Positions 60,401 through 63,390 are shown, counted from the first letter of the stretch. The stretch is 64,000 nucleotides of DNA from Heptranchias perlo (GCF_035084215.1 NC_090331.1:56730001-56794000); one strand, 5' to 3'. Made by a program: numbers and translations. Notes: generated by a model not told the origin, from the sequence alone.

Positions 60401-63390
60401 CTCTTATATTCTATGCCTCGGCTAATAAAGGGAAGTATCCCGTATGCCTTCTTAATCACCTTATCTACCTGTCCTGCTACCTTCAGGGATCTGTGGACAT
60501 GCACTCCAAGGTCCCTCACTTCCTCTACATCTCTCAGTGTCCTCCCATTTATTGTGCATTCCCTTGCCTTGTTTGCACTCCTCAAATGCAATACCTCACA
60601 CTTCTCTGGATTGAATTCCATTTGCCACTTTTCTGCTCACCTGACCAGTCCATTGATATCTTCCTGCAGTTTACAGCTTTCCTCCTCACTATCAACTACA
60701 CGGCCAATTTTTCTATCATCTGCAAACGTCTTACTCATGCCCCCTACATTTAAGTCCAAATCATTAATATATACCACAAAAAGCAAGGGACCTAGGTCTG
60801 AGCCCTGCAGAACCCCACTGGAAACAGCCTTCCAGTCACAAAAACACCCGTTGACCATTACCCTTTGCTTCCTGCCACTGAGCCAAATTTGGATCCAACT
60901 TGCCATTTTCCCTTGGATCCCCTGGGTTGTACTTTTTTGACTGCCAGTTTTTCAAGAGACAAATTAAAAACCTTCCGGTTTTGAGAAACAGTGGATATTT
61001 AAGATAAATGACCGTTTAATTAAAATGATCATAAGGACAGATTTCACTGCATTCAAAATATATCTACTGGGTATATGTTTAGTTATTAGAAGAAAAGCAT
61101 AAAATACCAATGCTCCATAAAGTGATACATATAAAGCATACTAAATTTATTAGTTCTACAGAAATTGCAATTACTTGAATATTGCATTTGACAAAATGTA
61201 AAAATATCTTTAAGTAAAGATATATAAAAAAATGGCTGAATACAGCTTCCAAAAATGATGAAAATGAGATAATCATAAATAAGAAGCAGCTGTTTTAGGA
61301 AACAGTCTTTAATCAGGATGTTTTAATCAAAGTACTATGCAATAAATATGATTACTTTTATGCAAAATATGCAAACCAAGATTAAGAAAAATATTCTTTG
61401 AATTAACAAGAATTAGGCTAACAAGAATTTAGAACTATCTAACCCGTAACAAGAAACATTGCCTCTACTAAAAGCTTTAAAAGCTATCACTAGTTTTATG
61501 TAAAGTAACCATCAGTTTTGCTTACCAGCAATTTGCAATATTATAACACTCCTTACCTTTTACTGTTAATGATGCTGAGCAAGAAACACTTCCAGCTTCA
61601 TTTGAAGCTGTACATTCATAATTTCCTGCATCTTTCAGTTTGGTTTTCAAGATTTCTAGAACTGCTATCTTGTCTTCAAATTTCATTTTATAATCTTTGC
61701 TAGAGCGAAGTTCTAATCCATCTTTTTTCCATGATATTTTTACTCCTGTGTCTTCGACTACTTGACATTCAAGATGTGTACTGCTATTAATTATAGTTTG
61801 GGTAGATTCAAGGCTCCTGGCAATGTGTGGTTTGTCAAGTACTATCAGGTCAGCTGTGCAGATATCAGTGCCACAGTCATTGGTCACTTTGCAAAAATAG
61901 GTTCCTTTGTGCTGAACCTTTAAGTTATTAATTTCTAAAACACGCTTGTTGTCTTTAGTTGATATTTTGTAGTTCTCTTCATCAGTAACATCAACACCAT
62001 TCTTTTGCCAAATGGTATGGATCACAGGTGATCCAGCCACTGTGCACTCAAGTCTTGCAGTTTTACCCACAAATGTCGTAACTGACTCCGGTCTAGTTAT
62101 AAAGCTTGGTGGGGAAAGTTCTACAAAAGAAACATCTTAGTTAGGATTTTCATTTACTGAAGGCTTTGAGAAAGTACTCATTTAGGACTGGTATGTTGCT
62201 CTAATTTACTTAAAGAAAATAATTGTAAACAATTTTACAACACCAAGTTATAGTCCAACAATTTTTATTTGAAATCTACAAGCTTTCGGAGGCTTCCTCC
62301 GTCCTCAGGTAAATGTCACATTTACCTGAGGAAAGAGGAAGCCTCCGAAAGCTTGTAGATTTCAAATAAAAATTGTTGGACTATAACTTGGTGTTGTAAA
62401 ATTGTTTACAATTGTCAACCCCAGTCCATCACCGGCATCTCCACATCATAAAGAAAATAAGAAAGACAAAAGAAAACAGATGACATTGATATTCTTAGCT
62501 GCATTTGTTGCAGCATTTAGATAGCTTACCATCAAAAAATTAAAACAGACTCATTTTCAAAACAATTTTATCTGGGTAGCAAAATTGGTTACTGTGAGGT
62601 GACTGAAGGAACATTTGAATTCAAAGTGAAATATTTTTCTTATAAAGGTGAAGTAATATATATGGAGGGACAAAAATCTTCTTGTAGTATAATTTCAAAG
62701 TTCATAAATCTTTCAAAAAATAATATTACACCAGTGAAACAGCTATAGAAACCTATTGCAGTAATTTGTTGCAATGGTTTGTTAATGCTTTAGACACATT
62801 TTGTTTCATAAGTGAAGCAGAACATTTTTGTCAGTGTAAGAAAAAGCAACAATGGTTTTATAAAAACAAAGTCTAAAAGATGGTGGGCAAAATTATTATA
62901 TAGTGAAACACCTTTGCAAAATGTAAACATTTTTGATAATTAAACTGTGTAAAAATGTCAAAAAGTATATTGTTACTTTTGGAAGTGAGCAGTCATTTTG
63001 GGCAGATGTAAAGTAACTATAGATGTGAAACCATTCAAACTTTTTAAGAGCAGTCAAATTGAAAATTAATTGTTAAAATTAATCAAAACAATTAGAGCAT
63101 AACCTACTTACCAGTCACGATCAATTTAGCTGTGCTGCTTACACTGCCGCTCTGGTTTGATGCTCTGCAGGTGTATTCACCACAATCAATTAGCTGAGGC
63201 TTCAAAAGTTTCAAGGTGGAGATATATTTCTCGTTCACAATGCTGTACTTTTCACTATCACGAAGTTCAGCTCTTGCTCGGAACCACTGGAACCTCACAT
63301 CAGGAATAGGGTCAACCTCACATTCAAACTGAGCAGCATGTCCAACTATCACCTCCAGTAATTCAATCTTCCTCTTGAAAGATGGAGGCA
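382..63390 (-). CDS. TTN: Titin (connectin), partial multi-exon gene: I-band middle Ig segment, N2A element and start of PEVK; gene continues beyond both window ends
   Basis: More than 70 GT-AG exons on the minus strand encode I-set Ig domains (PPxF...C...W...D.G.Y.C...N..G). The N2A sequence is recognisable: [65 protein letters not shown]. Confidence 0.98.
1633..1656 (-). CDS. TTN: Probable titin 24-nt glutamate-rich micro-exon
   Basis: ttatag|AA GAA GAA TGG ATA GAA GAA AGA G|gtaaca = EEEWIEER; phase 1-1. Confidence 0.62.
1954..1998 (-). CDS. TTN: Titin small exon at PEVK entry (45 nt; possible 84-nt form to 1915)
   Basis: [15 protein letters not shown]; donor CAG|GTAAAA; a second in-frame donor AGG|GTATTG lies at 1914. 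Confidence 0.72.
2463..2489 (-). CDS. TTN: Titin 27-nt micro-exon after I83
   Basis: acag|AA ATC ATC TTA CAG CCC AGG AAA CCT G|gtgtgt = EIILQPRKP (human EIKLELKPP as recalled). Confidence 0.8.
2589..2666 (-). CDS. TTN: Titin N2A exon, I83 second part
   Basis: 78 nt; [26 protein letters not shown]; donor GTAGGT. Confidence 0.9.
2725..3570 (-). mobile_element. CR1 3' fragment interrupted by a MITE
   Basis: [28 protein letters not shown]; same family as 18377-18870. Confidence 0.85.
3034..3275. mobile_element. Foldback MITE (PIF/Harbinger-like)
   Basis: Long imperfect terminal inverted repeats GGGGGTGATTTTAAAC.../...GTTTAAAATCGCCCCC; apparent 3-bp target duplication ATC inside the CR1. Confidence 0.75.
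3657..3866 (-). CDS. TTN: Titin N2A exon, I83 first part
   Basis: 210 nt; [15 protein letters not shown]...[14 protein letters not shown]...[10 protein letters not shown]. Confidence 0.9.
4003..4263 (-). CDS. TTN: Titin N2A exon, I82
   Basis: 261 nt; EPIVEQHL...[16 protein letters not shown]...LETSADL. Confidence 0.92.
4351..4618 (-). CDS. TTN: Titin N2A exon, I81
   Basis: 268 nt; PIQLIKDIE...[19 protein letters not shown]...[12 protein letters not shown]. Confidence 0.93.
4733..4819 (-). CDS. TTN: Titin UN2A C-terminal exon
   Basis: 87 nt, phase 0-0; [29 protein letters not shown]. Confidence 0.9.
4958..5141 (-). CDS. TTN: Titin N2A unique sequence (UN2A) exon
   Basis: 184 nt (phase 2-0); [51 protein letters not shown]; donor GTGAGT. 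Confidence 0.93.
5490..5772 (-). CDS. TTN: Titin N2A exon: I80 and start of UN2A
   Basis: 283 nt (phase 1-2); [19 protein letters not shown]...DFRAKLK. Confidence 0.93.
6180..6269 (-). CDS. TTN: Titin N2A exon: linker and start of I80
   Basis: 90 nt; [29 protein letters not shown]; donor GTAAGT. Confidence 0.88.
7143..7339 (+). mobile_element. CR1 3' fragment with (TTCCTATG)n tail
   Basis: Reverse-complement match to 16920-17105; typical gaatggcctactcctg terminal motif. Confidence 0.85.
7832..8203 (+). mobile_element. 3' end of a CR1/L2-group LINE
   Basis: [19 protein letters not shown]...[10 protein letters not shown] is an RT C-terminus; followed by AATAAA and a short A-rich end. Confidence 0.7.
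8442..12162 (-). mobile_element. Near-full-length CR1-clade LINE, 5'-truncated within ORF1 and frameshifted
   Basis: ORF1 SGNH-esterase motifs ([22 protein letters not shown]). ORF2 APE motifs (YLNARSI, ITETWL, SDHN) and RT motifs ([22 protein letters not shown]). 3' tail (TTCTTATG)n at ~8442-8460. Confidence 0.93.
13662..13949 (-). CDS. TTN: Titin exon, I79-like Ig
   Basis: 288 nt; [28 protein letters not shown]...[16 protein letters not shown]; donor GTATGG. Confidence 0.9.
14097..14389 (-). pseudogene. TTN: Disrupted titin Ig exon (I78-like pseudo-exon)
   Basis: Acceptor at 14390-14391. Reads [34 protein letters not shown]... with an in-frame TAA at 14331-14333. The C-terminal strand is degenerate and runs into TGA at 14097-14099; no donor at the expected position. 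Confidence 0.85.
14827..20904 (-). CDS. TTN: Titin 10-Ig super-repeat (6-Ig core plus four extra domains; ten exons)
   Basis: Exons 20623-20904, 20238-20516 (absent from the ORF track; hand-translated and intact), 19847-20125, 19438-19716, 19046-19333, 16537-16815, 16154-16432, 15751-16029, 15294-15581, 14827-15114. Confidence 0.9.
16853..17975 (-). mobile_element. Nested CR1 3' fragments (inner copy 16920-17360)
   Basis: Outer tail (TTCTTATG)n, inner tail (TTCCTATG)n; 6-bp duplication CCGCTA at 16914-16919 and 17361-17366; [18 protein letters not shown]. Confidence 0.88.
18377..18870 (-). mobile_element. CR1 3' fragment
   Basis: Aligns by eye with 2725-3570 lacking the MITE; CR1 ORF2 C-terminal remnants. 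Confidence 0.82.
21371..23849 (-). CDS. TTN: Titin 6-Ig super-repeat 8 (six exons)
   Basis: Exons 23568-23849, 23168-23446, 22700-22978, 22274-22552, 21859-22146, 21371-21649. Confidence 0.92.
24473..28586 (-). CDS. TTN: Titin 6-Ig super-repeat 7 (six exons; near-identical to repeat 5)
   Basis: Exons 28305-28586, 26778-27056, 26326-26604, 25437-25715, 25025-25312, 24473-24751. Confidence 0.9.
25797..26215 (+). mobile_element. tRNA-derived SINE, LF-SINE-like (duplicate at ~34529-34947)
   Basis: B-box GGTTCAAATCC; core segments ATGTGAAATTAGTT and GAGGCACATT...GGGGCAG recall LF-SINE. Confidence 0.5.
27380..28062. mobile_element. GC-rich non-autonomous TIR-type element (diverged paralog ~36117-36742)
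   Basis: GC-rich island with ends GGAGGAATTTTAA / TTAAAATCAGTCC resembling the other GG..TTTTAA-ended elements here. Confidence 0.5.
28864..32582 (-). CDS. TTN: Titin 6-Ig super-repeat 6 (six exons; includes the chimeric junction exon)
   Basis: Exons 32301-32582, 31901-32179, 31420-31698, 30247-30525, 29392-29679, 28864-29142. Confidence 0.9.
29898..30110 (-). mobile_element. L2-type 3' fragment or derived SINE tail (paralog ~38571-38825)
   Basis: [15 protein letters not shown] motif; ends in GCTATATAAATGCAAGTTGTT. Confidence 0.7.
30556..31297 (-). mobile_element. Penelope-like element fragment (GIY-YIG end plus pseudo-LTR)
   Basis: [17 protein letters not shown] and EH...PVAWHFN...LQPSGLN; direct repeat CAATATAT at 30548-30555 and 31298-31305; absent from duplication copy R. 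Confidence 0.85.
33206..37259 (-). CDS. TTN: Titin 6-Ig super-repeat 5 (six exons)
   Basis: Exons 36978-37259, 35510-35788, 35058-35336, 34169-34447, 33758-34045, 33206-33484. Confidence 0.92.
37537..40509 (-). CDS. TTN: Titin 6-Ig super-repeat 4 (six exons)
   Basis: Exons 40228-40509, 39857-40135, 39391-39669, 38969-39247, 38065-38352, 37537-37815. Confidence 0.92.
40720..46003 (-). CDS. TTN: Titin 6-Ig super-repeat 3 (six exons)
   Basis: Exons 45722-46003, 45329-45607, 44898-45176, 44517-44795, 41262-41549, 40720-40998. Confidence 0.92.
41598..44218. mobile_element. GC-rich TIR element split by a CR1 nest
   Basis: Ends GGGGAGATTTAAC and GTTAAAATTCACCC; interior interrupted at ~42099-44086. 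Confidence 0.5.
42099..44086 (+). mobile_element. Nested CR1 LINE fragments (inner copy ~42385-43405)
   Basis: Outer copy: KFADDTK...ETQKVS continues as VQQAIRK at ~43407, tail TTCTTATGTTCTT. Inner copy has tail TTCTATGATTCTAT. Confidence 0.88.
46768..47120 (-). mobile_element. CR1 3' fragment
   Basis: [30 protein letters not shown]-type tail. Confidence 0.8.
48147..48785. repeat. Cluster of related AT-rich inverted and direct copies (foldback-like)
   Basis: GTGTAATTACA.A.TGACAAGTT... forward at ~48150 and ~48560, reverse complement ending at ~48517. Confidence 0.65.
48788..48972. mobile_element. Short hairpin MITE
   Basis: CCCTAAAATTCCACGGGGTTC / GAACCCCTGTGGAATTTCAGGG termini; internal TGGTGCAAA/TTTACACCA symmetry. 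Confidence 0.65.
49457..50110 (+). pseudogene. Decayed Myb/SANT-like (Harbinger accessory, NAIF1-like) coding relic
   Basis: KHNELF...[26 protein letters not shown] with stops, then [14 protein letters not shown]...[10 protein letters not shown] after a putative intron. Confidence 0.5.
50335..50465 (-). mobile_element. Very short CR1 3' end, same subfamily as the 8442 element
   Basis: Nearly identical to 8442-8572. Confidence 0.85.
52056..55862 (-). CDS. TTN: Titin 6-Ig super-repeat 2 (six exons)
   Basis: Exons 55581-55862, 55171-55449, 54755-55033, 53007-53285, 52596-52883, 52056-52334; same length pattern. Confidence 0.92.
53742..54577. mobile_element. Non-autonomous TIR element containing a CR1 3' end (54123-54247)
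   Basis: TGGCCCAGAAATTGCTGGA / TCCAGCAATTTCTAGGCCA termini. Confidence 0.7.
56085..59095 (-). CDS. TTN: Titin 6-Ig super-repeat 1 (six exons)
   Basis: Exons 58814-59095, 58409-58687, 57990-58268, 57601-57879, 57198-57485, 56085-56363; lengths 282/279/279/279/288/279, all phase 1-1. Confidence 0.92.
56580..56900 (+). mobile_element. Degenerate tRNA-derived SINE
   Basis: TGGCTCAG A-box-like and GGTTCAAT B-box-like motifs; TGCTGAGTTAGCTGATCT core with an inverted partial copy at ~56520-56546. Confidence 0.45.
59808..60940 (-). mobile_element. CR1 LINE 3' ~1.1 kb
   Basis: [42 protein letters not shown]; same subfamily as 42385-43405. Confidence 0.9.
61557..62120 (-). CDS. TTN: Titin exon encoding two Ig domains (I28-I29-like)
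   Basis: 564 nt open frame, acceptor ttgtag, donor [17 protein letters not shown]...DKPHI...HLECQV. Confidence 0.93.
62221..62448. mobile_element. Penelope-derived palindromic element with hammerhead motifs
   Basis: 96-bp arms 62221-62316 and 62318-62413 with 2 mismatches; flanking direct repeat TAAAGAAAATAA at 62211-62222 and 62449-62460. Confidence 0.8.
62274..62314 (-). ncRNA. Minimal type-I hammerhead ribozyme motif (mirror copy on + at 62320-62360)
   Basis: AUUUAC-CUGAGGA-C-GGAGG-AAG-CCUCC-GAAA-GC-UU-GUAGAU: CUGANGA and GAAA core, 5-bp stem II, 6-bp stem I. Confidence 0.62.
63112..63390 (-). CDS. TTN: Titin exon, I27-like Ig (first middle-Ig exon after N2B in human)
   Basis: 279 nt, acceptor ctatag, donor [30 protein letters not shown]...[10 protein letters not shown] resembles human I27 as I recall it. 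Confidence 0.93.

What the first reader, a model, noticed from the sequence alone, without database searches (positions are those of the whole stretch)
62211..62460. Intronic palindrome with hammerhead ribozyme motifs on both strands, 100 nt upstream of an exon
Seen: 96-bp near-perfect inverted arms with a 12-bp flanking direct repeat. Each arm reads as a minimal hammerhead (stem I AUUUAC/GUAGAU, CUGAGGA, stem II, GAAA-GC-UU); the copy with the perfect stem II is on the titin-sense strand. Known: Penelope pseudo-LTRs carry minimal hammerheads that tend to cleave as dimers through a palindromic stem III (here AAGCUU). Inference: a young non-autonomous element places a potential self-cleaving site in titin pre-mRNA. 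The antisense arm is transcribed first and could lock it in a long hairpin, which would also be an ADAR/Dicer substrate near the I28-29 acceptor.
Basis: partly seen in the sequence, partly recalled or inferred. Interest (0 to 1): 0.7.

Follow-up and report, generated by a model that had tools for sequence, protein, structure and literature searches.

The report
Palindromic Penelope stub in titin intron
This 238-base palindrome in a titin intron is one of an estimated several thousand stub insertions of a Penelope-type jumping gene; its ribozyme motif is predicted to be locked in a long hairpin, and the stubs' anatomy suggests the element likely copies its RNA from both cut DNA strands at once.

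Summary
In detail: 96-bp inverted arms, a 12-bp target-site duplication (TSD) and minimal hammerhead motifs, 100 nt from a titin acceptor.

It is a dead-end insertion of the terminal repeat (pLTR) of an autonomous, Neptune-type Penelope-like retrotransposon. The genome has about 50,000 exact hammerhead-core matches, and 33 of 78 sampled loci are such short palindromes. Two related species have the empty site, and the intron is spliced out.

The hammerhead covaries across the family, but this copy is predicted silent. Forming it costs 66 kcal/mol against the hairpin, it has no same-strand dimer partner in the window, and the 'perfect stem II' is a private mutation pairing catalytic G12.

It is not a self-copying palindrome: the same centre recurs in both orientations.

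The useful part is mechanistic. In 58 of 60 head-to-head insertions one arm ends at the start codon and the other about 35 nt upstream. TSDs are 12-14 bp in 38 of 46, with microhomology at both ends, and 5' ends pile up about 30-39 nt below a TATA box. This suggests both target strands prime cDNA. The scan noted similar stubs in other genomes before (e1-7858806, e1-9981659).

The parts
62211..62222 (.). Left target-site duplication TAAAGAAAATAA; its last 2 nt (AA) also match the arm (microhomology)
   Evidence: one copy only at the empty site of organisms C and D
62221..62316 (-). Tail-less inverted pLTR arm, ending about 35 nt upstream of the element's ATG ('site 2'); hammerhead-sense on the titin strand
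62274..62314 (-). Minimal type I hammerhead motif: stem I AUUUAC/GUAGAU, CUGAGGA, extra C (62301; family A), stem II GGAGG/CCUCC, GAAA-GCUU; nominal cut between 62280 and 62279
   Evidence: numbering by the recalled hammerhead scheme and PMC4209133
62317..62317 (.). Head-to-head junction; the two arms start 29 and 31 nt downstream of the first T of the family's TATAAAT box
   Evidence: the same 29-nt junction occurs 18 times in G000
62318..62413 (+). Direct pLTR arm; hammerhead-sense on the plus strand, with a rare G10.1->A change at 62334
   Evidence: 99 of the first 100 listed core matches have G
62414..62448 (+). 35-nt Penelope 'tail', ending just before the element's start codon ('site 1')
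   Evidence: internal pLTRs continue CACATC-ATGGCTACC into the ORF
62449..62460 (.). Right target-site duplication; its first T matches the element's next base
62121..63111 (-). Host titin intron (991 nt, GT-AG) holding the element; the branch-point-like CCTAAC (recalled motif) and pyrimidine tract lie outside the insertion
   Evidence: (joint 62120-63112)
61557..62120 (-). Titin exon with two I-set Ig domains

Best explanation
This is a dead-end stub insertion of an autonomous Neptune-type Penelope-like retrotransposon, likely made when both strands of a 12-nt staggered cut primed reverse transcription, and its hammerhead motif is predicted to be silent in titin pre-mRNA. Shown: family identity, TSD, empty orthologous site, tail on one arm only, independent origin of each palindrome, and a spliced form of the intron. 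Inferred steps: (1) the element's RT-endonuclease, possibly as a dimer, nicks the two strands 12 nt apart, leaving 3' overhangs; (2) one 3' end primes on pLTR RNA at the start codon (site 1) and the other about 35-37 nt upstream (site 2), each through 1-4 nt of microhomology; (3) both cDNAs run off the RNA 5' end about 30 nt below the pLTR TATA box; (4) repair joins them head to head. In titin pre-mRNA the antisense arm is made first and the 96-bp hairpin would zip up as the sense arm emerges; the intron is then spliced out.
For: Family: long copies carry RT (PF00078) and a C-terminal VYLI..WYIGET endonuclease preceded by CX4CxxC (the Neptune/Nematis trait per passages of PMC8557442); internal pLTRs run through the tail into the ATG. 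Abundance: 50,408 exact core matches over six disjoint patterns, reversed controls 0; 33 of 78 position-ordered loci are short palindromes. Geometry: 58 of 60 head-to-head pairs have one site-1 and one site-2 arm, none has two of a kind. TSD 12-14 bp in 38 of 46. Microhomology averages 1.56 and 1.63 nt against shuffled 0.61 and 0.44 (maxima 1.07 and 0.93) in the 41 of 58 pairs with a TSD called. 111 of 159 core-bearing arms end within -118..-155, against 18 in the next 294 nt. Against fold-back: the tail-less arm reaches further 5' in 10 pairs and the tailed arm in 5; 8 of 42 pairs carry different common subfamily alleles in their two arms, 4 of them at two sites. Silence: the forced hammerhead costs +66.5 kcal/mol, P(G10.1-C11.1) 2e-16, and co-transcriptional prefixes are already zipped. 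Splicing joint in X5, X6 (same organism) and X8, X9 (organism B). In vitro, a Poseidon protein cuts and extends both strands and starts at two sites that bound the tail (PMC11167929).
Against: The priming model is read from genomic end products only. The in vitro paper saw no difference in start site between strands (compatible at population level, but per-event coupling was not shown there). 32 of 42 arm pairs agree at every diagnostic site (3.4% discordance against 30% at random), as fold-back would also give. The microhomology measure is inflated by roughly 0.3 nt per end through chance TSD extension, and 17 of 58 pairs were dropped for short or failed TSD calls. The TATA-relative map is blurred (most ends at +26 to +44) by an incomplete variant set, and several long arms with divergent upstream sequence were counted among the 98 'short' ones. 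The start site is not measured. Samples come from one contig (C1), the main one from its first 15 Mb, and require an exact core in at least one arm. Folding is equilibrium prediction, and the Poseidon ribozyme needed its protein to cleave.
Confidence: 0.75

Rival explanations
1. Same stub, but the second arm is made by fold-back (self-priming) of one cDNA or of an antisense template, then trimmed by the endonuclease or repair so that only one end keeps the tail.
For: Proposed for head-to-head Penelope repeats in the Discussion of PMC3846280; a passage of PMC8557442 ascribes the tail to endonuclease resolution. Arms of one insertion are usually the same subfamily, and many junctions hold extra palindromic letters.
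Against: 8 of 42 pairs have arms with different common subfamily alleles; either arm can be the longer (10 against 5); microhomology to the TSD is seen at the tail-less end too.
Confidence: 0.25
2. The titin-sense hammerhead cleaves titin pre-mRNA at some rate and affects splicing or transcript level.
For: The motif keeps the core boxes, stem I and G10.1-C11.1 on the titin strand, and the isolated arm folds both stems. The family's stem I pair covaries.
Against: +66.5 kcal/mol in context; the extra C pairs G12 (-11.8 against -9.3 kcal/mol for the proper fold); no second same-strand motif in the 64 kb. A single minimal motif from Schistosoma did not cleave (PMC4209133) and the anole ribozyme needed protein. 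The spliced junction is present in X5 and X6.
Confidence: 0.04
3. A non-autonomous palindromic element (MITE- or retrozyme-like) that is copied as a unit.
For: The exact 29-nt centre occurs 18 times in the genome; both outer ends are nearly fixed.
Against: Those copies have the tail right in 7 and left in 3 of 10 examined and sit on different subfamily backgrounds. Centres differ among the 46 pairs listed. Arms range from a few dozen nt to over 1.6 kb into the ORF.
Confidence: 0.05
4. The hairpin is A-to-I edited or diced while the intron exists, as a by-product like inverted Alu pairs, possibly with a small effect on the nearby acceptor.
For: A 96-bp duplex is predicted in the intron, 100 nt from the acceptor; that ADAR edits long duplexes is recalled knowledge.
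Against: No direct evidence; the same splice joint is seen here and in organism B; branch-point-like and pyrimidine sequences are outside the hairpin. This can coexist with the best explanation.
Confidence: 0.4

Closest known systems
Typical EN+ Penelope insertion with inverted pLTR and optional tail (Pen2a_Av, PMC3846280, passages and Discussion; PMC8557442, passages)
   Same: Head-to-head inverted pLTR that is 35-37 nt shorter than the tailed one, 31-40-nt tail on one end, short TSD, TATA plus Inr-like promoter in the pLTR.
   Different: Here both arms are cut down to about 100-130 nt, the TSD is sharply 12-13 bp, and the form is the commonest product (33 of 78 loci).
Poseidon of the green anole, PAc (PMC11167929, main text read)
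   Same: Two reverse-transcription start sites bounding the tail; AT-rich targets (TSDs 70.5% AT); 2 of 120 arms start near the hammerhead cut, in line with uncleaved template.
   Different: Site 1 lies at the start codon rather than 111-118 nt into the ORF; the endonuclease has the Neptune-type CX4CxxC linker; that paper's main text does not discuss inverted arms or duplications (term search).
Minimal type I hammerheads of metazoan PLEs (PMC4209133, results and discussion read)
   Same: Unpaired nucleotide between A9 and G10.1, G10.1-C11.1, palindromic 15.2-16.2, no stem III; dual motifs on opposite strands 100-700 bp apart were already reported.
   Different: Stem II is 5 bp rather than 7-8; this copy has one damaging change in each arm.
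Non-LTR retrozymes (bioRxiv 10.64898/2026.07.22.740005, first fifth read)
   Same: Short, non-coding, pLTR-derived, type I hammerhead.
   Different: Retrozymes are head-to-tail tandem arrays able to form dimers; this is a single head-to-head pair.
L1 twin priming (recalled, no call)
   Same: A second target strand primes cDNA and gives a 5' inversion between TSDs.
   Different: In L1 the second primer lands at variable internal sites and copies non-overlapping RNA; here it uses a fixed site and the two cDNAs overlap.

Membership tests
EN+ Penelope-like element | Single ORF with RT and C-terminal GIY-YIG endonuclease in the parent family | tested here: met
   RT PF00078 E 8.5e-11; VYLI..WYIGET and CCHH-type residues read by eye; Pfam gave no family for the endonuclease piece
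EN+ Penelope-like element | pLTR in partial tandem, overlapping the 5' end of the ORF | tested here: met
   Internal pLTRs preceded by the ORF end and running into the ATG; cores spaced 3,081 bp on one strand
EN+ Penelope-like element | 30-40-nt tail on one end and an inverted 5'-truncated copy | tested here: met
   35-nt tail 62414-62448; 58 of 60 pairs
Neptune clade | CX2-5CxxC linker before GIY-YIG | tested here: met
   CHGNLCKTC upstream of VYLI; criterion from PMC8557442 passages; Nematis shares the motif
Neptune clade | RT phylogeny groups with Neptune | not tested
   No reference PLE RT set was fetched
Minimal PLE hammerhead | CUGAnGA and GAAA boxes, extra nucleotide, G10.1-C11.1, palindromic stem III | tested here: met
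   Met in the titin-sense arm; the plus arm has A10.1
Minimal PLE hammerhead | Stem covariation among copies | tested here: met
   One stem I pair: C-G 21,078, U.G 4,151, U-A 2,553, C.A 95. Stem II closing pair: A-U 14,929 but unpaired A.C 7,602, so that pair is dispensable. Counts reflect few source lineages
Minimal PLE hammerhead | Self-cleavage as monomer or dimer | not testable with these tools
   Only folding predictions
Rfam hammerhead families | Covariance-model match | tested here: not met
   No hammerhead family among 18 hits at E<=10
Non-LTR retrozyme | Head-to-tail tandem units each with a hammerhead | tested here: not met
   One motif per strand, head to head
MITE-like non-autonomous unit | Fixed internal structure copied as a unit | tested here: not met
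   Variable centres; the same centre in both orientations

The most novel reading that the evidence does not exclude
Penelope-like elements integrate by coupled dual target-primed reverse transcription: a dimer cuts with a 12-nt stagger and each strand primes at its own fixed RNA site (start codon, and about 35 nt upstream), sometimes on different RNAs. This one mechanism would explain the one-sided tail, the head-to-head inverted pLTR and the thousands of promoter-to-start-codon palindromes, which act as a ready genomic read-out of the reaction.
Probability: 0.55. Interest if true: 0.6.

Novelty: new member of a known kind. Interest (0 to 1): 0.38.

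Why it matters
The locus itself is ordinary: one of thousands of similar stubs, in an intron that is spliced out. The family statistics bear on an open question, how Penelope elements make their inverted repeats and one-sided tail. The papers read offer self-priming (PMC3846280) or endonuclease resolution (PMC8557442), and leave the steps after first-strand synthesis unvalidated (PMC11167929). 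The strict site1/site2 pairing and the 12-bp stagger give predictions that the existing in vitro system can test. The genome also likely holds thousands of ~100-bp perfect hairpins of one family, a natural set for studying editing of intronic duplexes outside mammals.

Tried and rejected
1. An arm-specific base (A10.1 in every tailed arm, G10.1 in every tail-less arm) looked like programmed editing or two different pLTRs. Rejected: it was ascertainment by my query, which carries a rare A. With N at that place, 99 of the first 100 listed matches have G (likewise 99 of 100), and in the arm alignment only L131 and the window's own plus arm have A.

2. miRNA: the Rfam MIR821, MIR477 and mir-4716 hits are below gathering score and on both strands; generic hairpin matches.

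3. Hammerhead-cleaved RNA as template: 2 of 120 paired arms start within -100..-85 of the cut at -92; no pile-up.

4. A stable fold around the two start sites: z -0.13 for the L039 pLTR-ORF junction, uninformative.

5. 'Rare shared variants' as proof of one RNA template: 7 observed, null mean 1.1 but maximum 8; inconclusive.

6. Expression and editing: no RNA holder listed on record; runs X5, X6, X8, X9 are only guessed to be RNA and are contigs. The A>G rows over the arms also appear in the DNA run and come from paralogous copies, so editing could not be judged.

7. Polymorphism within the species: only one sample is held. Its contigs run from both flanks into the element at flank depth and no empty joint is among the 15 shown (64 not shown). 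It may be the assembly sample.

8. Literature: five searches found no paper stating coupled two-strand priming for Penelope. Most subscription papers, including the early Drosophila Penelope work, are not in the library, and no supplements were read, so the idea may be in print.

Full report
OBSERVATION. The arms (62221-62316, 62318-62413; 96 nt, 98%) and the 12-nt direct repeat (62211-62222, 62449-62460) are as described. The hairpin is far beyond chance (z -24). Between the right arm and the right repeat lie 35 nt (62414-62448) with no mirror image. The neighbouring minus-strand exon encodes two I-set Ig domains, best matching a titin Ig tandem. Contigs from runs guessed to be RNA join 62120 to 63112 across a 991-nt GT-AG intron, in this organism (X5, X6) and in organism B (X8, X9). 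The label I28-29 was not tested.

WHAT IT IS. The right arm plus tail is a dispersed repeat. [quoted passage not shown] Internal copies run through the tail straight into the start codon. This is the pLTR of an autonomous Penelope-like element, Neptune-type by the linker criterion (PMC8557442 passages; no tree was built). Six disjoint hammerhead-core patterns give 21,078 + 2,553 + 95 + 4,151 + 14,929 + 7,602 = 50,408 exact matches, with reversed controls at 0. I examined all of the first 100 listed matches (78 loci after merging) and the first 30 (26 loci). Of the 78, 33 are short head-to-head palindromes like the window's. That extrapolates to about 7,000 for that one pattern, from the first 15 Mb of one contig. 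In organisms C and D one contig crosses the site without the element (joint 62212-62450 in X13, X14, X15), so the direct repeat is a true TSD and the insertion is lineage-specific.

NOT A SELF-COPYING PALINDROME. Centres differ among the 46 pairs listed. The window's exact 29-nt centre occurs 18 times. Among the 10 fetched (the window included) the tail is on the right in 7 and on the left in 3, on different subfamily backgrounds. The centre is therefore rebuilt independently.

HOW IT LIKELY FORMS. Of 60 head-to-head pairs in 104 loci, 58 combine one arm ending at the start codon (site 1) with one ending about 35 nt upstream (site 2). None has two arms of one kind, and 2 have one arm elsewhere. 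TSDs are 12, 13 or 14 bp in 20, 15 and 3 of 46 pairs, as a 12-nt stagger plus chance extension would give. A second script called 10 bp or more in 41 of 58 pairs. In those 41, microhomology between TSD end and element averages 1.56 and 1.63 nt against shuffled means of 0.61 and 0.44; the observed values are inflated by about 0.3 nt through chance TSD extension. Arm 5' ends pile up: 111 of 159 core-bearing arms end at -118..-155, 18 at -156..-449, and 30 run further. Long copies carry TATAAAT upstream; the window's arms begin at +29 and +31 from it, and most short arms map to +26..+44, with blur from an incomplete variant set. Either arm can be the longer one (10 against 5; inverted arms of 1.3 and 1.6 kb in L032 and L033). 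Arms of one insertion usually share subfamily alleles (3.4% discordance against 30% at random). Ten of 42 pairs differ at a diagnostic site; in 8 both alleles are common subfamily alleles, and 4 of these differ at two sites. I infer that both target strands prime cDNA at fixed sites, that both run off at the pLTR promoter start, and that repair joins them. This fits the in vitro findings that a Poseidon protein cuts and extends both strands, starts at two sites that bound the tail, and is predicted to be a dimer (PMC11167929). Fold-back self-priming (PMC3846280 Discussion) remains the main rival, because most arm pairs are concordant.

THE HAMMERHEAD. The motif has the features listed for minimal PLE hammerheads (PMC4209133). 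At family level one stem I pair covaries: the broken C.A form is 95 of 27,877, about 2,000 being expected if the two positions were independent, though copies descend from few source elements. The closing pair of stem II is G-C or A-U but is unpaired in a 7,602-copy group, so that pair is dispensable. Rfam has no matching hammerhead model. In this copy the plus arm has lost G10.1, and the titin-sense arm has C instead of A at the extra position. In the titin transcript the antisense arm comes first, predicted prefixes are zipped before the motif is complete, and forcing the hammerhead costs 66.5 kcal/mol. No second same-strand motif lies in the window. Cleavage of titin pre-mRNA is therefore unlikely, though untested. 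Editing could not be judged from contigs.

A FALSE LEAD. The first 30 loci suggested an arm-specific base at position 10.1. An unbiased pattern showed this to be ascertainment by the query.

WHAT WAS READ. PMC11167929: parts 1-2 of 4 (abstract, main text, start of methods) plus a term search. PMC4209133: parts 1-2 of 4. PMC3846280: passages and the Discussion. PMC8557442: passages. bioRxiv 10.64898/2026.07.22.740005: part 1 of 5. No supplements were read; they may bear on TSD lengths and tail models. Five searches found no statement of coupled two-strand priming, but older subscription papers are not held. L1 twin priming, ADAR substrate rules, the branch-point motif, TATA spacing and hammerhead numbering are recalled. 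Earlier notes of this scan describe similar stubs in two other genomes; I had reached my reading before seeing them. A search by sequence found none.

VERDICT. The feature is real and a new member of a known kind; the locus is ordinary and the ribozyme is predicted silent. Interest 0.38, carried by the testable integration model.

Noticed in passing
G000:C1:4461020, 4464101, 4467182: Three same-strand hammerhead cores spaced exactly 3,081 bp: likely a head-to-tail array of full-length units, where a dimeric hammerhead could form.
   Followed up: no
L002:1329-1394 and 1634-1699: A tailed copy with no inverted arm found, flanked by a 66-bp direct repeat instead of 12 bp; perhaps a different resolution route.
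   Followed up: no
L023 (oriented 1351-1501 and 1857-2007): 151 bp of flanking DNA is present as an inverted copy between the two arms.
   Followed up: no
runs X13-X15 laid on window 62343: Loose ends suggest that the related family in organisms C and D has stem II GGAGC/GCUCC, a C-G swap of the closing pair.
   Followed up: no
G000:C1:15341337, 15356705, 15372123: A short palindromic pair repeats at about 15.4-kb spacing, probably inside a larger tandem duplication.
   Followed up: no
L019:311-1194 and L020:629-1194 (oriented): Two copies adjoin a 54-bp tandem array and match each other at 98% from the array through the element; possibly a duplicated locus on contig C38.
   Followed up: no
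window 8437-11350, 16844-17994, 42101-44091, 59806-60941: Other interspersed repeats in the titin introns, each matching 52-87 of the fetched loci; not part of this family.
   Followed up: no
L095, L099, L140, L145 junctions: 180-340 nt of other sequence lies between the two arms in some pairs, suggesting template capture during joining (in L145 partly the element's own ORF).
   Followed up: no
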